A DNA stretch of 62,533 nucleotides, from positions 1 to 62,533 of IMG/VR virus record IMGVR_UViG_3300022221_000007. One strand, 5' to 3'. Position 1 is the stretch's first letter. The number at the start of each line of letters is the position of its first letter. Positions 787-10,233 of this stretch are shown here, piece by piece. The translations under genes and the position numbers were made by a program. This DNA is from a virus. Lineage: Duplodnaviria; Caudoviricetes. Below the pieces are notes generated by a model. That model was given only the letters and a program-made list of their open reading frames with translations, was not told where the DNA came from and made no database searches.

Positions 787-815
787 GATATAATTATGAT
801 GTTGAATAATTAGAA

Positions 816-933
816 GCCCCAGGTGAGAGTCGAACTCACAATCTAACGTATCAGCACACACAGTGTTGGCTAGGTAGCTCGAACCGTACGTCAAAATTTA
901 TACGCGTGCTTTACCATTAAGCTCTACTGGGAC
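816..933 (-). ncRNA. tRNA-like RNA T1 with 48-nt expanded anticodon loop, no encoded CCA
   Basis: Acceptor GTCCCAG/CTGGGGC, D arm GCTT-AATGGTA-AAGC, T arm GTGAG-TTCGACT-CTCAC, stem GCGTAT/ATACGT closing a 48-nt loop. Confidence 0.65.
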
Positions 934-944
934 ACAAAACTAGG

Positions 945-1000
945 ACCGGCAGCGGGGAATCGAACACCCGAACATGACTTATCAGTACGGTTCCGCCGGT
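945..1000 (-). ncRNA. minimal tRNA-like RNA T2 (acceptor-like stem plus T arm, no D arm)
   Basis: ACCGGC/GCCGGT closing stem; CGGG(T)G-TTCGATT-CCCCG T arm. Confidence 0.45.
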
Positions 1001-2915: not shown

Positions 2916-2960
2916 TAACGATTAAACATAGTTTTTTCCTCGAAGACTAAAACAATTAAT

Positions 2961-3130
2961 TTTTTGAAGGACTTTGGCGGGACTCGAACCCGCACACCCT
3001 AATTACGTCTAGCTGTTATAGGGAAGATAGTTACGACCATGAGCTAGGAGAGCCTACTTTATCAGCTCCCATCCATATTGGCTTAATCCACACCCCTGTA
3101 TACCAGTTCCAGCACAAAGCCCTTCAAAAA
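2961..3130 (-). ncRNA. tRNA-like RNA T3 (Leu-type D/T arms, ~100-nt central insertion, acceptor extended to 16 bp)
   Basis: TTTTTGAAG-GGCTTTG...CAAAGTC-CTTCAAAAA; D arm CTG-GAACTGGTATA-CAG; T arm GCGGG-TTCGAGT-CCCGC. Confidence 0.7.
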
Positions 3131-3131
3131 A

Positions 3132-3440
3132 GCCAGTGTTACGCCACTGGCATCGCATGTAATCCCCATGACGGGTCAACTAACAGCCACAATAGTTGAA
3201 TAGAAGGTTCTGTTTAACGAGCATTGGCTAAAACCGCCTCGACTTCAGTATGGAAGTTACATCCTCTCATTGAGTTAAAGAGCTGAGTAGGTTTGCTCCA
3301 TTAAACTTTTAATTCAGGACTCCCCCGTTCAAACATGACGGTGGTCGTTCCCAGGCCCGAACAGAGCCAAAAATACCGGCATATAACCGGTTAAGGTAAT
3401 CTCATAATGACCTGTTCTGTTGCCAGGTAGGTCAAACCCC
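3132..3440. ncRNA. non-coding region rich in stem-loops (possible further ncRNAs)
   Basis: gccagtg/cactggc, tcaacta/tagttga, ggttctgtt(3206)/aacagagcc(3368), tgacct/aggtca; no ORF of 60 aa or more. Confidence 0.35.
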
Positions 3441-3453
3441 TACAAACTAAATG

Positions 3454-3783
3454 CTATGCAGCACGTAAAGCGTCAAGCACATCGAACATTTCAGCTTCGG
3501 TTGCCACATCAGCAAACGAATCATCGTATTCGGCATTAACCAATTCTTCACCAGTCATAGACGAAGCTTTGATTAATTCTTCAACATACCACTGCTGGCC
3601 ATCAAGGAAGTCCTTAACAGTCTTGCCTTCAGTTTCCAAGGCCTTAGCCGTAGCCAAGTTAGTCACGATCTGATCAATTTCTTCTTCAGAAAGATCAGGG
3701 CGAATGTTCAGATCCTTAATACGTTGGATCTTACGCTTGGCTTTTTTAAAGGCAGTGGCCAAAACCTGCTGATTACGTTCCAT
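3454..3783 (-). CDS. hypothetical protein with basic N-terminus and acidic C-terminus, downstream of RNAP
   Basis: GAGGAG RBS before ATG 3783. Confidence 0.7.
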   Translation of the reverse strand: MERNQQVLATAFKKAKRKIQRIKDLNIRPDLSEEEIDQIVTNLATAKALETEGKTVKDFLDGQQWYVEELIKASSMTGEELVNAEYDDSFADVATEAEMFDVLDALRAA

Positions 3784-4014
3784 AAGTTTCTCCTCGTATG
3801 GAATACCCAACACTGGGCAGTGCGAGATCACATGATCTCTTGATTTTCAAAGGTATGAGCGAATGCGAAGCTGTTTAGAGTGTCGAATCAAGTAAGGAAC
3901 TGCGGTGAATAGATACCTAATGAAATAGATTCCCAGCCAGTACTGGTATCAACTTAATCACCAAAACGGTGATGTGTAAGAATCAACCAGCACAAAACAA
4001 CCAGAAAACTTAGA

Positions 4015-6033
4015 TCAAGGCATCAGAAAGTTCACAGACTCCAACGCTTTGTTTGGGGCGTTGCCCACCAAAAGCTTTGGTGCTGGAACATAACGCTCTA
4101 ATCGATCAGCAATCTGATCAAGAGCATCTTGCATTAAATTGTTATCACGCAAGTAACTAAAGAATTCCTGACAAACTTTAGTCACTGCTTCAAACATATC
4201 CGGCATGACAATATAGTCATCATGCTTAACCAAGAAGGATTCACCTTTGTCCAACAGCATACGAGTAATTCTGCGAAGCAGAGTGCCATCGATACTGTGG
4301 GTCAAATTGGCAAACAACCCTCGAGTCTTAACATTGGTACCTTTATGGCTATGGGCAGTAGTGTTCTCACGACCAAAAATAGGCATACCTCTACGATCCA
4401 ATGCCAAAGGCATAGTAGCCATAATCTTGTATTCCTTATGGAATTTGCCCTCGATACGGGTAGATGCAGCAAAAACTGAGAACGGAGTACGTTCCATAAC
4501 GGCTTGGTGAAATGCAGTCAAACCATCATCAGTCTTCCACTTAAGAACATTCTGCGTGTTAGTAACCACATCAGCACCCCAGGCAGCAATCAAGTCAATG
4601 TTATCCACCTCAATACCGTAGGCTTCAACATTGTGCTGATCGACAGACTCAACCGTAAAGTCGTCAGGATTCTCGACATGATTGTGAAGAATCTTAACGA
4701 TAGTCTGAACAGAGGAGCCATGTAACAACGGAGTATGAATCTCTTTAACTGCTCTCCTGCCTAAGTGCATGACACCCTGAGCTGTACCAAATTGAGTATG
4801 AGAGTCATTAACACAATCCTGTCCCATTAGGTTGCCGGCAGTCAGCATCTGCTCTGAGCCACTACAAGAGGCCAGCATGATCAATCCTGAGTTAGTTAAA
4901 TCCTTACCCAACATATAATGGCAAGGAATACCTGCCAAAGTCATCTCAATAGCCCTAGCAGCCTTCAACACATTGATAGCTTCACCACAACGATCTTCAA
5001 ACTTACGGAACTTATCGTGGGTAAGTTCACTGTACTTAACACCCGGCAACGGAACATTTAAAGGGTCTTGCTCCAATGCCCAGATGTAGTCTTCATCACT
5101 AAACCGATTAACAGAATCAAGCTCAGTCATCTTTCCATATCGAGCATCACAAATAATGTGCTTGCAAGTGTTGATAGCTGACTCACCCAGGAGCTTAGGC
5201 TTGTAAGCATCCAACATAGCCACTTCAAATAACTTACCTTGAGGACGGAAGCCATAAAGGGCATTGGCATCATAATAGGTACGGTATCTGCTGCAGTGGT
5301 TAACCGGTAGATAAAACTTCTCCTTAGCAACCAACTCCTTAGCAGCAGCCATGTAATCCACGTTAAACCGTCTGTGACGCTTCACACGCTTCTCATTCTT
5401 AGTTTCGGCATGGTACAGAGCAGAACCCTTATAAAAGTGACTCAGGCGTTCCTCAGTCCATACATCAGACACCTTAAACGGTATAGATGCCTGTTCCATA
5501 TCCATTTGGATCTGATGACGAGGTAACCGTTCAAAGCCAACAAACTTAGACCGCACTATCCCAGGCTCGTCTTCATACCCAACCAAATGGTTAGTAGGCT
5601 CCGGTGTACCACCCAAAATAATAGTAGTCAGGTTGCGCTTACGAACATGACCAGTATCAGGATCAGTATGAGCAACAAGGTTAACCCGACTGGTAACAAT
5701 TTTGTTATCCAACATCAGCTCAACCAAAAGAGCTGCCATAGTGTGACTGACCAATGCCTTATCGAAGTTACTCATACCGGTAGGCCTACGGAACTTAAGG
5801 GCTCCCAGCTTTTTCTCAATCTTTCCTTCCAAAGACTCAATAGCCAACTCGTCATTGTTAGCTTTAAGATGCATAACAATTTTCTCGATCTTCTTACTGT
5901 TAGTTTCCCAAAACTCAGGAGACAAGAAGATCTTATGGGCTACCTTAGTAGGCTCAGCCATATTGGGATATGCCAGCTGGCACTCAGCAAAAGCTAGACG
6001 AAGGTTAGACAAACTAAACTTTAAAATTTCCAT
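4015..6033 (-). CDS. single-subunit T7/N4-RNAPII-type DNA-directed RNA polymerase
   Basis: CSRYRTYY..FRPQG (DxRGR region), motif A KDLTNSGL, motif B RRAVKEIHTPLLHG, ANLTHSIDG, motif C KHDD; RBS favours ATG 6033 over 6048. Confidence 0.85.
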   Translation of the reverse strand: MEILKFSLSNLRLAFAECQLAYPNMAEPTKVAHKIFLSPEFWETNSKKIEKIVMHLKANNDELAIESLEGKIEKKLGALKFRRPTGMSNFDKALVSHTMAALLVELMLDNKIVTSRVNLVAHTDPDTGHVRKRNLTTIILGGTPEPTNHLVGYEDEPGIVRSKFVGFERLPRHQIQMDMEQASIPFKVSDVWTEERLSHFYKGSALYHAETKNEKRVKRHRRFNVDYMAAAKELVAKEKFYLPVNHCSRYRTYYDANALYGFRPQGKLFEVAMLDAYKPKLLGESAINTCKHIICDARYGKMTELDSVNRFSDEDYIWALEQDPLNVPLPGVKYSELTHDKFRKFEDRCGEAINVLKAARAIEMTLAGIPCHYMLGKDLTNSGLIMLASCSGSEQMLTAGNLMGQDCVNDSHTQFGTAQGVMHLGRRAVKEIHTPLLHGSSVQTIVKILHNHVENPDDFTVESVDQHNVEAYGIEVDNIDLIAAWGADVVTNTQNVLKWKTDDGLTAFHQAVMERTPFSVFAASTRIEGKFHKEYKIMATMPLALDRRGMPIFGRENTTAHSHKGTNVKTRGLFANLTHSIDGTLLRRITRMLLDKGESFLVKHDDYIVMPDMFEAVTKVCQEFFSYLRDNNLMQDALDQIADRLERYVPAPKLLVGNAPNKALESVNFLMP

Positions 6034-6141
6034 AGTATATTTCTCCATACTATTAATGTTGAGGTATACCTGATTAAACCATCAGGCAAGTGTGGTTGAG
6101 CACACTCCAAAGCCCTCTATATTTCAAAAGGGCAGGAAAGT

Positions 6142-8658: not shown

Positions 8659-8916
8659 TTAATCGAACAGTGAAAACTGTTCGTGTTTTTCGGCTTCTTT
8701 TACTTCTACATAGATGTGGTGCTTGTCAGTATTAGTACAGGACATAGTACCATTAGGACAATCACTATGTGACTTACCCTGAAACACACAACCATCACAT
8801 GAACCCAAGTCATACACACTTTTAGGAGGAATTCTTACCAGTTTTATGTTCACAATACTCTCCCTATTCACAAGGATCTGCCTCATCAGTACAGAGAGAT
8901 CATTCTCTGCAGACAC
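8659..8916 (-). CDS. Cys-rich hypothetical protein
   Basis: SCDGCVF..C..C pattern. Confidence 0.55.
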   Translation of the reverse strand: MSAENDLSVLMRQILVNRESIVNIKLVRIPPKSVYDLGSCDGCVFQGKSHSDCPNGTMSCTNTDKHHIYVEVKEAEKHEQFSLFD

Positions 8917-8935
8917 CCAACTAAGGGTGTTTCGG

Positions 8936-9145
8936 CTAGTGAGCTTGAACAGTAATCACTGGCTCAGAAGTCACAACTAAGTGAACGCCAGTAACCACAA
9001 GGATTAAGAGTGTCAGTAACCAAGATCCAATCGTCTCAACTGACGTACCCTCAAGGAGTCCAGACACCATAAACAGGCTAATAAGGACCGAGACAACAAG
9101 ACTAATTACTAACAGGAACAGGCCAATGATAAATGCAGGTTTCAT
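8936..9145 (-). CDS. small two-TM membrane protein
   Basis: Two hydrophobic helices; GGAG RBS. Confidence 0.65.
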   Translation of the reverse strand: MKPAFIIGLFLLVISLVVSVLISLFMVSGLLEGTSVETIGSWLLTLLILVVTGVHLVVTSEPVITVQAH

Positions 9146-9835: not shown

Positions 9836-10060
9836 ATGAGTGGTGTTAGCCCTAAAATCTATTTTGAGAATACAGATGCCGTGGCTGGTGCGGATATATT
9901 TGATGTGAGAACTCAGACAGCGATCCTGGCTGATTGGTTGGTAGCTAATTTATCGGATAACAAGATGCGAACAAGAGCTTTGAATTCTTTACGTCGAGTA
10001 GAGAGTGATGCTATTGAAGCAATTGTTTATGATATTGAAAATGGTACAACTCCGGTCTAA
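9836..10060 (+). CDS. small helical-hairpin protein, weakly Acb2/Tad1-like
   Basis: GAGG RBS; LADWLVANLSDNKMRTRALNSLRR resembles the hairpin pattern. Confidence 0.55.
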   Translation: MSGVSPKIYFENTDAVAGADIFDVRTQTAILADWLVANLSDNKMRTRALNSLRRVESDAIEAIVYDIENGTTPV

Positions 10061-10233
10061 TAGTTATTAATAAAGTAATGCGAAGGAAGGTTAGTGAGAA
10101 CATTTGTGTTGAAGGAAGGAGCGCAGCGACTGAGTGACACAAATGTTTGAACTAAACTTTCTTGGTATTAGTTTATTAATATGTATGTTTCAAATAAAGC
10201 CCTGTGTATCCCCTTGGGATACCAGTATTAGGA

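What the first reader, a model, noticed from the sequence alone, without database searches (positions are those of the whole stretch)
2961..3130. tRNA-like RNA T3: Leu-type arms, ~100-nt structured insert, acceptor extended to 16 bp
Seen: D arm CTG-GAACTGGTATA-CAG and a perfect T arm flank a ~100-nt insert with hairpins (GGGAGC/GCTCTC, CCCTA/TAGGG) and a possible pseudoknot (CTAGCT/AGCTAG). The acceptor is continued by TTTTTGAAG/CTTCAAAAA, the same kind of A/U-ended long stem that closes the other cassettes. Inference: this links the tRNA-like RNAs and the long-stem cassettes into one RNA family or processing route. It is not tmRNA-like, since it has a D stem and no evident tag ORF.
Basis: partly seen in the sequence, partly recalled or inferred. 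Interest (0 to 1): 0.72.

Follow-up and report, generated by a model that had tools for sequence, protein, structure and literature searches.

The report
Phage tRNA-like RNA with pseudoknot insert
This is one copy of a previously unlisted, conserved phage RNA that keeps the body of a leucine-type tRNA but replaces its anticodon loop with a knotted structure, so it probably imitates a tRNA and does not decode.

Summary

It is not a dead tRNA. A covariance model built here finds the same RNA at 120-175 bits in 26 other loci. These include two cultured, unrelated phages, cyanophage S-CRM01 and Pseudomonas phage GP100, where the spot is unannotated. On 22 sequences, 96% of cells pair, 33 of 42 pairs change on both sides, and the pseudoknot covaries. 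The invariant tRNA core bases and the covarying 15:48 pair are kept.

The anticodon loop is replaced by about 65 nt: a three-helix junction tied by the pseudoknot to an enlarged variable-arm loop. No single excision gives a normal anticodon arm. ARAGORN with introns of 24 copies, with ten different anticodons. Position 73 varies, the closing stem runs 0-21 bp, and Rfam 15 has no match.

Best reading (0.55): a non-decoding, tRNA-Leu-derived tRNA mimic or scaffolded RNA, cut out by host nucleases. Its function is inferred, not shown.

The parts
2960..3131 (-). Whole element: closing helix, tRNA-like core and pseudoknotted insert
   Evidence: Sequence. The model R1 hit covers 2969-3123 at 156.4 bits and is the only hit in the window.
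3122..3131 (-). 5' strand of the extension of the closing helix (TTTTTTGAAG). Its T-run is also the tail of a terminator-like hairpin at 3151-3132.
   Evidence: inverted repeat I2.
3115..3121 (-). Acceptor-like stem, 5' strand (GGCTTTG)
   Evidence: Helix 1: all 8 pairs change on both sides across the family.
3096..3112 (-). D arm: a 3-bp stem (CTG/CAG) with an 11-nt loop that carries the invariant A14, G18 and A21 equivalents
   Evidence: Helix 2 (3 of 3 pairs covary); invariant core bases.
3091..3095 (-). Anticodon-stem homologue (P-ac), 5' strand; pairs with 3029-3025
   Evidence: Helix 3 (98.2% paired, 3 of 5 pairs with changes on both sides). The model aligns it to the anticodon stems of T4 tRNA-Leu and tRNA-Ser.
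3083..3090 (-). J1, the 5' side of the internal loop (TGGATTAA). It holds the anticodon-like U-[A/C]-A-G, in which only A or C occurs at the variable position.
   Evidence: 22 aligned rows; GP100.
3080..3082 (-). P-x, 5' strand (GCC); pairs with 3038-3036
   Evidence: Helix 4: 100% paired; the C-G pair becomes U-A in 2 of the 22 aligned sequences.
3071..3079 (-). J2, a conserved single-stranded stretch (AATATGGAT)
3048..3070 (-). Hairpin hp (GGGAGC...GCTCTC) with an invariant G-U second pair
   Evidence: Helix 5: 6 of 7 pairs covary; pair 57:84 is G-U in 22 of 22.
3042..3047 (-). Pseudoknot strand 1 (CTAGCT)
   Evidence: Helix 6: 3 of 6 pairs change on both sides. Variant pairs are visible and in GP100.
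3036..3038 (-). P-x, 3' strand (GGT)
3030..3035 (-). J3, the 3' side of the internal loop (CGTAAC; family pattern NNNA-A/C/T-C/T)
3025..3029 (-). P-ac, 3' strand (TATCT)
2997..3023 (-). H3, the variable-arm homologue: a 5-bp stem (CCCTA/TAGGG) and a 17-nt loop. The loop holds pseudoknot strand 2 (AGCTAG, 3014-3009).
   Evidence: Helix 7 (5 of 5 pairs covary). Extra covarying loop pairs 118:129 and 116:132. The model aligns it to the variable arms of T4 tRNA-Leu and tRNA-Ser.
2977..2993 (-). T arm (GCGGG TTCGAGT CCCGC) with the invariant T54, Psi55, C56 and A58 equivalents
   Evidence: Helix 8. The Rfam tmRNA model touches only this arm.
2970..2976 (-). Acceptor-like stem, 3' strand (CAAAGTC)
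2960..2969 (-). 3' strand of the extension of the closing helix (CTTCAAAAAA). There is no encoded CCA.

Best explanation
T3 is one copy of a conserved, phage-borne structured RNA that derives from a class II, leucine-type tRNA.

What it keeps: the whole upper body of a tRNA, meaning the closing (acceptor-like) stem, the D arm, the T arm, the D/T elbow, and the homologues of the anticodon stem and the variable arm.

What is changed: the 7-nt anticodon loop is replaced by about 65 nt. This insert forms a short helix (P-x), a hairpin (hp) and conserved single strands. A 6-bp pseudoknot ties the insert to an enlarged variable-arm loop, so the lower half of the molecule is a closed, rigid domain.

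How I think it works (inferred): it is transcribed with the neighbouring genes or tRNA array. Host tRNA-processing or double-strand-specific nucleases cut it out, helped by the tRNA-like top and the long closing helix. It stays unspliced and cannot decode. It acts as a tRNA mimic or a tRNA-scaffolded module that engages a host factor which recognises tRNA shape, such as a synthetase, a processing or modification enzyme, or a tRNA-directed defence nuclease.

The structure, conservation and distribution are shown by computation. Transcription, processing, lack of splicing and the binding partner are inferred.
For: Homology
- The region between the D arm and the acceptor 3' strand is 78.1% identical over 133 nt to an unannotated gap between tRNA-Ala and tRNA-Val in cyanomyovirus S-CRM01. 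The flanks do not align.
- Model R1 gives 120-175 bits in 26 of 183 loci searched, plus 156.4 bits for T3. L173 and L176 are identical copies, and two copies are cut by contig ends.
- The hits include Pseudomonas phage GP100 of the Zobellviridae, at 130.8 bits in an unannotated gap.

Structure
- 96.0% of cells pair, 33 of 42 pairs change on both sides, and 0 of 500 shuffles reach this; slid controls pair 36-51%.
- Pseudoknot covariation was seen in copies found with a 5'-side pattern that did not fix the pseudoknot.

Intact tRNA core
- The equivalents of U8, A14, G18, A21, T54, Psi55, C56 and A58 are invariant in 22 of 22.
- The 15:48 pair is A-U in 18 and G-C in 4.

Leucine-type origin
- R1 scores T4 tRNA-Leu at 36.4 bits and tRNA-Ser at 30.7 bits; every other T4 tRNA scores 20.7 bits or less.
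- R1 aligns P-ac to the anticodon stem and H3 to the variable arm.

Not a decoder
- ARAGORN with introns of 24 copies. It gives ten different anticodons and differing intron positions.
- Its Leu(UAA) solution for T3 uses bases that pair elsewhere in relatives.
- The equivalent of position 73 is A in 11, T in 5, C in 3 and G in 3.
- No CCA is encoded in T3.
- The closing helix has 0-21 contiguous bp. 5 of 22 extend 4 or more bp beyond 7, against 0 of 83 standard tRNAs in the same loci.

Context
- 13 of 26 loci have 3 or more standard tRNAs within 3 kb.
- Standard tRNA-Leu genes lie beside the element in 7 loci.

No phage splicing machinery
- No RtcB, tRNA-intron endonuclease or RNA-ligase Pfam match in the window record, GP100 or S-CRM01.
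- No shared flanking protein family.
Against: - No expression or end-mapping data exist here. No RNA run was found, so transcription, processing and absence of splicing are untested.
- The unpaired U-[A/C]-A-G in J1 could be read as U33 plus a Leu anticodon (AAG or CAG). None of the neighbouring arrays carries a standard Leu(CAG) or Leu(AAG) gene. A non-canonical maturation route is therefore not excluded.
- About half of the copies have a closing stem of roughly normal length, 5-8 bp, which is compatible with ordinary tRNA end processing.
- No binding partner is indicated by gene neighbourhood.
- Homologues were found by sequence patterns, so divergent members are under-sampled. Several copies are near-identical, which inflates the cell counts.
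Confidence: 0.55

Rival explanations
1. It is an intron-bearing tRNA-Leu gene. The roughly 60-nt structured insert would be removed, either by self-splicing or by host enzymes such as an endonuclease plus RtcB, to give a working decoder. This would resemble the 'enigmatic introns' reported in Lak megaphage tRNAs.
For: - ARAGORN with introns calls T3 as tRNA-Leu(UAA) with a 59-nt intron at the canonical position.
- The element sits in tRNA arrays in 13 of 26 loci.
- J1 carries U-[A/C]-A-G, which can be read as U33 plus a Leu anticodon AAG or CAG.
- Phage tRNAs with conserved introns of unknown mechanism are in print (PMC6784885; passages read).
Against: - Only 10 of 24 copies get any intron-tRNA call, and those calls give ten different anticodons.
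- ARAGORN's 3' anticodon strand in T3 is the 5' strand of H3, which covaries with its own partner.
- By hand enumeration on alignment A3, no single excision leaves a 7-nt loop with U33 next to the covarying anticodon-stem homologue.
- The G of the putative anticodon pairs in P-x.
- GP100 has G, and L005 and L171 have A, at the putative position 33.
- Rfam group I intron and ribozyme models do not hit.
- No bulge-helix-bulge motif is visible by inspection.
- No ligase or endonuclease is found in three phage genomes.
- The equivalent of the discriminator base is not conserved.
Confidence: 0.15
2. The tRNA part is only a carrier. The pseudoknotted module would itself be the active part, either a new small self-cleaving ribozyme or a ligand-binding aptamer, using the tRNA body for processing and stability.
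For: - Near-invariant single-stranded stretches J1, J2 and J3 and the H3 loop.
- An invariant G-U pair in hp, 22 of 22.
- A three-helix junction plus pseudoknot is typical of ribozymes and aptamers (general knowledge, recalled).
- A type II hammerhead lies elsewhere in the same window.
- No linked protein partner was found.
Against: - No match to any Rfam ribozyme or riboswitch family, even at E up to 10.
- The tRNA core is conserved as strictly as the module, including the covarying 15:48 pair. This suggests that the tRNA shape itself is being read.
- Nothing here can test catalysis or ligand binding.
Confidence: 0.2
3. It is a decayed tRNA gene that took up a random insertion (a pseudogene), or a DNA-level signal such as an attachment site or a terminator palindrome.
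For: - Default ARAGORN and the Rfam tRNA model do not call it.
- A terminator-like hairpin abuts it, and that hairpin's T-run forms part of the long stem.
Against: - The insert is the most conserved part between unrelated phages.
- Eight helices, including a pseudoknot, covary. This is selection on RNA pairing, not on DNA sequence.
- 26 further copies occur in diverse phage contigs.
Confidence: 0.02

Closest known systems
Class II (leucine-type) tRNA
   Same: It shares the acceptor-like stem, a 3-bp D stem with an 11-nt GG-containing loop, the T arm and the invariant core bases. The 15:48 pair covaries. It also has homologues of the anticodon stem and the variable arm.
   Different: There is no 7-nt anticodon loop; about 65 structured nt stand in its place. 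The variable-arm loop is enlarged to 15-17 nt and pseudoknotted to the insert. Position 26 is missing relative to T4 tRNA-Leu. The discriminator equivalent is not conserved, and the closing stem varies from 0 to 21 bp. It falls below the tRNA model and the default ARAGORN thresholds.
tRNAs with 'enigmatic introns' in Lak megaphages (Devoto et al. 2019, PMC6784885; passages read)
   Same: Both are phage tRNA-type genes that carry conserved inserted sequence, with no known removal mechanism, in phages of bacteria.
   Different: The Lak cases were called as canonical tRNAs once an intron was removed. Here no consistent excision gives a canonical tRNA, and the insert pairs with the variable-arm loop. 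Sequence relatedness was not compared, because the Lak intron sequences are in supplements I could not see.
Phage T4 stable RNAs species 1 and 2 (rnaC, rnaD) in the T4 tRNA cluster
   Same: These are small stable RNAs of unknown function encoded inside a phage tRNA array (annotation). rnaC has a tRNA-like 3' part that R1 scores at 24.2 bits.
   Different: There is no similarity in the insert or the pseudoknot. The score comes from the tRNA-like part only. That RNase III cleaves species 1 RNA is my recollection and was not checked here.
tmRNA
   Same: Both are tRNA-like RNAs with an acceptor stem and a T arm, in which the anticodon arm is replaced by pseudoknotted RNA.
   Different: T3 has a true D stem, no tag reading frame and a single pseudoknot, and it is about 155 nt long. 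ARAGORN finds no tmRNA. The Rfam tmRNA model matches only the 17-nt T arm.
tRNA-scaffolded RNAs: engineered tRNA scaffolds, and the gammaherpesvirus tRNA-miRNA units (TMERs)
   Same: In both, a functional RNA is attached to or placed within a tRNA-like body, so that cellular tRNA enzymes process and stabilise it. This is an analogy for how T3 may work. The engineered scaffolds are recalled; the TMER paper PMC4337559 was seen only as a search listing.
   Different: Those are artificial or eukaryotic-virus cases. Here the module also recruits the variable arm through a pseudoknot, and no processing data exist.

Membership tests
Canonical tRNA (Rfam RF00005 / ARAGORN tRNA) | Reaches the family score or detector threshold | tested here: not met
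   ARAGORN in default mode finds 0 genes in the window. RF00005 has no hit on T3 in the window search (the only hit is 817-931, at 25.1 bits against a 29-bit cut-off). It is also absent at E up to 10 on 2950-3140.
Canonical tRNA (Rfam RF00005 / ARAGORN tRNA) | Acceptor, D and T arms, with conserved core bases and the elbow | tested here: met
   The helices covary. The equivalents of U8, A14, G18, A21, T54, Psi55, C56 and A58 are invariant in 22 of 22. The 15:48 pair is A-U in 18 and G-C in 4.
Canonical tRNA (Rfam RF00005 / ARAGORN tRNA) | 5-bp anticodon stem closing a 7-nt loop with U33 and an anticodon | tested here: not met
   The stem homologue closes about 65 nt. No conserved 7-nt loop exists.
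Canonical tRNA (Rfam RF00005 / ARAGORN tRNA) | 7-bp acceptor stem ending in a conserved discriminator base (A73 for bacterial Leu; recalled) | tested here: not met
   Contiguous closing pairs range from 0 to 21. The position-73 equivalent is A in 11, T in 5, C in 3 and G in 3.
Intron-bearing tRNA (protein-spliced or group I) | Removal of one segment restores a canonical anticodon arm at the same place in all members | tested here: not met
   ARAGORN with -i200 of 24 copies, with ten different anticodons and differing intron positions.
Intron-bearing tRNA (protein-spliced or group I) | Group I intron core, or a bulge-helix-bulge motif | tested here: not met
   No Rfam intron hit. The insert is about 65 nt. 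There are internal loops on both strands around a 3-bp helix, not two 3-nt bulges around 4 bp (inspection).
Intron-bearing tRNA (protein-spliced or group I) | A spliced RNA product exists | not testable with these tools
   No RNA run was listed for the window.
tmRNA | tRNA-like domain without a D stem, plus a tag reading frame and several pseudoknots; reaches the Rfam or ARAGORN score | tested here: not met
   One search finds no tmRNA. The tmRNA model gives 11.7-14.5 bits on the T arm only, against a 47-bit cut-off. A covarying D stem is present.
Known self-cleaving ribozymes and riboswitches (Rfam 15) | Match to a family covariance model | tested here: not met
   Nothing relevant appears on 2950-3140 at E up to 10. 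The only ribozyme in the window is the type II hammerhead at 8872-8937.
The new family defined here (model R1) | Full-length match to R1, with the pseudoknot strands complementary | tested here: met
   T3 scores 156.4 bits over model positions 1-159. T3 is one of the sequences the model was built from, so it matches by construction. Independent support comes from GP100, L171, L175, L176 and L180, which were not in the training alignment and score 120.7-170.1 bits.

The most novel reading that the evidence does not exclude
The pseudoknotted insert is a new kind of tRNA-embedded active RNA. It could be a small self-processing ribozyme, or a ligand- or protein-gated switch, that holds a leucine-type tRNA body in a non-decoding state and releases or alters it during infection. 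Alternatively, it could be a dedicated decoy that disarms a host tRNA-directed defence.
Probability: 0.15. Interest if true: 0.9.

Novelty: new variant of a known kind. Interest (0 to 1): 0.66.

Why it matters
Phage tRNA arrays are usually read only as codon-supply genes. This shows a conserved resident of those arrays, also found alone in small podoviruses, that has a full tRNA shape but no anticodon loop. It adds a well-supported orphan RNA family to the short list of tRNA mimics such as tmRNA, Y-RNA-like RNAs and the T4 stable RNAs.

The family is missed by default ARAGORN and by the Rfam models run here, and it is unannotated in two cultured phages, S-CRM01 and GP100. Those two phages make its processing, binding partners and effect on infection directly testable.

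It also warns that a 'tRNA with intron' call in phage genomes can hide something else.

Tried and rejected
- **ARAGORN's reading of T3** as tRNA-Leu(UAA) with a 59-nt intron. Rejected because its 3' anticodon strand is not conserved in S-CRM01 and the calls across the family disagree.
- **An anticodon in J1 (UAA/UCA, or AAG/CAG with U33).** Rejected as a canonical loop. The G pairs in P-x, the preceding base is not always U, and only A or C occurs at the variable position, which looks more like a tertiary contact.
- **An alternative stem register shifted by 2 nt** through the GU repeat. Considered by hand. It has one or two consistent changes, but it leaves three extra bases after the D stem. 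Not adopted.
- **A shared neighbouring protein.** None was found among ORFs within 5 kb in 25 loci.
- **Phage-encoded RtcB, tRNA-intron endonuclease or RNA ligase.** None in the window record, GP100 or S-CRM01.
- **Bacterial copies.** The one scan of species-representative genomes used the commonest pseudoknot pattern. It gave 6 stretches, none with the tRNA-like flanks; they look like chance matches. Other pseudoknot variants were not searched there.
- **Chance matches in the pattern scans.** Many scan hits were chance: only 26 of the 183 loci searched with R1 carry the element.
- **Homology to T4 rnaC.** The only resemblance is the tRNA-like part.
- **Closest cultured relatives** of the window phage, Alteromonas phages PT11-V19 and R22Y. 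They have no copy.
- **RNA evidence.** No RNA holder was listed; read laying was not used.
- **The S-CRM01 genome paper.** Not held.
- **Relatives of the neighbouring tRNA-like genes T1 and T2.** None by blastn against phages or by a 17-mer scan of viral contigs.
- **Print search.** Six full-text searches found no description of this RNA.

Full report
**What is at the coordinates**

The window is one viral record of 62,533 bases. The finding lies on its minus strand, co-oriented with its neighbours:
- a Band-7/SPFH protein gene at 1932-2915;
- a 125-aa ORF at 3454-3831;
- a single-subunit RNA polymerase gene at 4015-6048.

- a 7-bp acceptor-like stem (3121-3115 with 2976-2970);
- a D arm (3112-3096);
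- a perfect T arm (2993-2977);
- 102 nt between the D and T arms;
- the two hairpins;
- the complementary hexamers CTAGCT and AGCTAG.

The closing stem continues outward to 17 contiguous pairs. Its T-run is also the tail of a terminator-like hairpin at 3151-3132.

Standard detectors see nothing here. ARAGORN in default mode finds no tRNA or tmRNA in the whole window. Rfam at gathering scores finds only a type II hammerhead at 8872-8937. At E up to 10, Rfam touches only the T arm.

**It is a conserved RNA, not a wreck**

A blastn search of the 211-nt region against cultured phages hit one phage (two records of S-CRM01), the T4-like cyanophage S-CRM01. The match is 78.1% identical over 133 nt and covers the insert. 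It falls in an unannotated gap between tRNA-Ala and tRNA-Val. The flanks do not align.

The window phage itself is a different kind of virus. Its DNA polymerase is about 60% identical to that of two Alteromonas podophages of 68-71 kb.

Pattern scans then found more copies:
- in IMG/VR;
- in metagenome contigs, where 11 of 13 stretches were real and 2 were chance;
- with a second scan that fixed only 5'-side bases, which gave 11 stretches, all carrying the element, 8 of them new.

I built a covariance model, R1, from 22 sequences. Its results:
- It gives 120-175 bits in 26 of 183 held loci. L173 and L176 are identical, two copies are cut by contig ends, and several are near-identical.
- It scores T3 at 156.4 bits, and T3 is its only hit in the window.
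- It confirmed a copy in Pseudomonas phage GP100 (Zobellviridae, 50.5 kb) that blastn had only grazed. That copy scores 130.8 bits and again lies in an unannotated gap.
- S-CRM01 and GP100 each have one copy. The two Alteromonas phages closest to the window phage have none.

One scan of species-representative prokaryotic genomes with the commonest pseudoknot pattern gave six stretches. None has the tRNA-like flanks, and they look like chance matches.

**Structure**

RNAalifold on 16 sequences predicted 37 nested pairs, 28 of them with compensatory changes.

I then tested a hand-written structure of eight helices, including the pseudoknot, on the 22-sequence MAFFT alignment:
- 96.0% of 921 cells pair.
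- 33 of 42 pairs change on both sides.
- 0 of 500 shuffles reach any of the five measures.
- Versions with partners slid by 1-3 columns pair only 36-51%.

These counts are of sequences, not independent events, and some rows are close relatives. The slid controls keep that relatedness and still fall far below.

The pseudoknot covaries. CUAGCU/AGCUAG is replaced by CUGGCU/AGCCAG, UGCGCU/AGCGCA, CGCGCU/AGCGCG and UUGGCU/AGCCAA, and by CGCAC/GUGCG in GP100. Mutual information added two further pairs inside the H3 loop.

**It is built on a leucine-type tRNA**

The tRNA core is intact. The equivalents of U8, A14, G18, A21, T54, Psi55, C56 and A58 are invariant in 22 of 22. The tertiary 15:48 pair covaries perfectly, A-U in 18 and G-C in 4.

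Run on the T4 tRNA cluster, R1 scores tRNA-Leu highest at 36.4 bits, then tRNA-Ser at 30.7 bits; every other T4 tRNA scores 20.7 bits or less. It aligns the helix I call P-ac to the anticodon stem and H3 to the variable arm.

So the family is a class II tRNA body with two changes. The 7-nt anticodon loop has become about 65 structured nucleotides, and the variable-arm loop has grown to 15-17 nt and is knotted to that insert.

**Why I do not read it as a decoder or an ordinary intron-bearing tRNA**

Its 3' anticodon strand is the 5' strand of H3, which covaries with its own partner. The same solution fails in S-CRM01.
- Across 24 copies, ARAGORN calls only 10. Those calls give ten different anticodons and differing intron positions.
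- By hand, no single excision leaves a 7-nt loop with U33 next to the covarying stem.
- The anticodon-like U-[A/C]-A-G in J1 has its G paired in P-x. The base before it is G in GP100 and A in two other copies. Only A or C occurs at the variable position.
- The position-73 equivalent is not conserved, and no CCA is encoded in T3.
- The closing stem has 0-21 contiguous pairs. 5 of 22 copies extend 4 or more bp beyond 7, against 0 of 83 ordinary tRNAs in the same loci. Only 83 of the 142 ARAGORN tRNAs could be scored under my coordinate assumption. In some copies a second helix follows an internal loop, and it covaries between relatives.
- None of three element-bearing genomes encodes an RtcB, a tRNA-intron endonuclease or an RNA-ligase domain.
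- No protein family recurs beside the element.

**Context**

In 13 of 26 loci the element has 3 or more standard tRNAs within 3 kb, and 20 of 26 have at least one. Standard tRNA-Leu genes (UAG, CAA, UAA or GAG) stand beside it in 7 loci.

In the window, GP100 and a few other contigs it stands without a tRNA array. This argues for a role of its own, separate from filling a gap in the tRNA set.

**Most likely mechanism**

*Shown by computation:* a conserved L-shaped tRNA core whose lower half is closed by a junction and a pseudoknot, with sporadic distribution across unrelated phages.

*Inferred:*
- It is transcribed with its neighbours.
- It is released by host tRNA-processing or double-strand-specific nucleases.
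- It stays unspliced and acts as a tRNA mimic or a tRNA-scaffolded module on a host factor that reads tRNA shape.

I put this at 0.55. The rivals are:
- a module that is itself catalytic or ligand-binding (0.2);
- a non-canonical intron-bearing tRNA (0.15);
- a pseudogene or a DNA-level signal (0.02).

No RNA data could be brought to bear.

**Comparison with what is known**

- The nearest phenomenon in print is the set of 'enigmatic introns' in Lak megaphage tRNAs. I read passages of PMC6784885. Its intron sequences are in supplements I could not see.
- The nearest analogues in phage tRNA arrays are the T4 stable RNAs rnaC and rnaD, of unknown function (annotation). Any resemblance is limited to the tRNA-like part.
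- T3 is not tmRNA. It fails every tmRNA membership feature tested.
- Rfam 15 has no model that matches it.
- Six full-text searches found no description of it.

I therefore file it as a new variant within the known kind 'tRNA-derived structured RNAs', not as a member of any named family.

It is a real tRNA-like RNA with a pseudoknot and is not tmRNA. The proposed unity with the window's other cassettes is not supported, and the long stem is a trait of only part of the family.

Noticed in passing
window 8872-8937 (-): A type II hammerhead ribozyme: a full-length Rfam match at 51.6 bits against a 37-bit cut-off. It overlaps or abuts small minus-strand ORFs.
   Followed up: no
window 815-933 (-): A second non-standard tRNA-like gene. 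The Rfam tRNA model gives 25.1 bits, below the 29-bit cut-off. ARAGORN with introns calls it tRNA-Ser(GCU) with a 43-nt insert at a non-canonical loop position. No relatives were found by blastn against phages or by a 17-mer scan of viral contigs, and its fold is no better than shuffles.
   Followed up: partly
window 945-1000 (-): A roughly 56-nt mini tRNA-like hairpin set: an 8-bp closing stem plus a T-arm-like hairpin with a TTCGATT loop. It lies directly after the stop codon of the Nmad5-domain ORF at 1008-1607. It has no known relatives.
   Followed up: partly
window 3406-3588 (-): A weak match to the Rfam alpha-proteobacterial tmRNA model: 19.9 bits against a 50-bit cut-off, E = 0.013. 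It is driven by a 3'-end-like stretch in the 320-nt non-coding gap upstream of T3. This is probably chance, but the gap also holds another terminator-like hairpin at 3391-3375.
   Followed up: no
window 10060-10186: The longest inverted repeat in the first 12 kb: 50-nt arms, 80% complementary, 27 nt apart.
   Followed up: no
L003 3381-3487 (-): In one element-bearing viral contig, a 107-nt tRNA-like gene lies about 250 nt upstream of the element and scores 45 bits with R1. It has the same D-arm type and a variable-arm loop that resembles the family's, but it lacks the insert and the pseudoknot strand. ARAGORN does not call it. It may be a relative without the insert.
   Followed up: partly
L186 1494-1650 (GP100 record 4074-4230) and L002 2486-2644 (S-CRM01 record 135445-135603): Both cultured phages carry the element in stretches with no annotated feature.
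   Followed up: yes
window, whole record: CheckV's completeness estimate is 31%. However, the closest cultured relatives by DNA polymerase are 68-71 kb, so the 62.5-kb record may be nearly complete.
   Followed up: no
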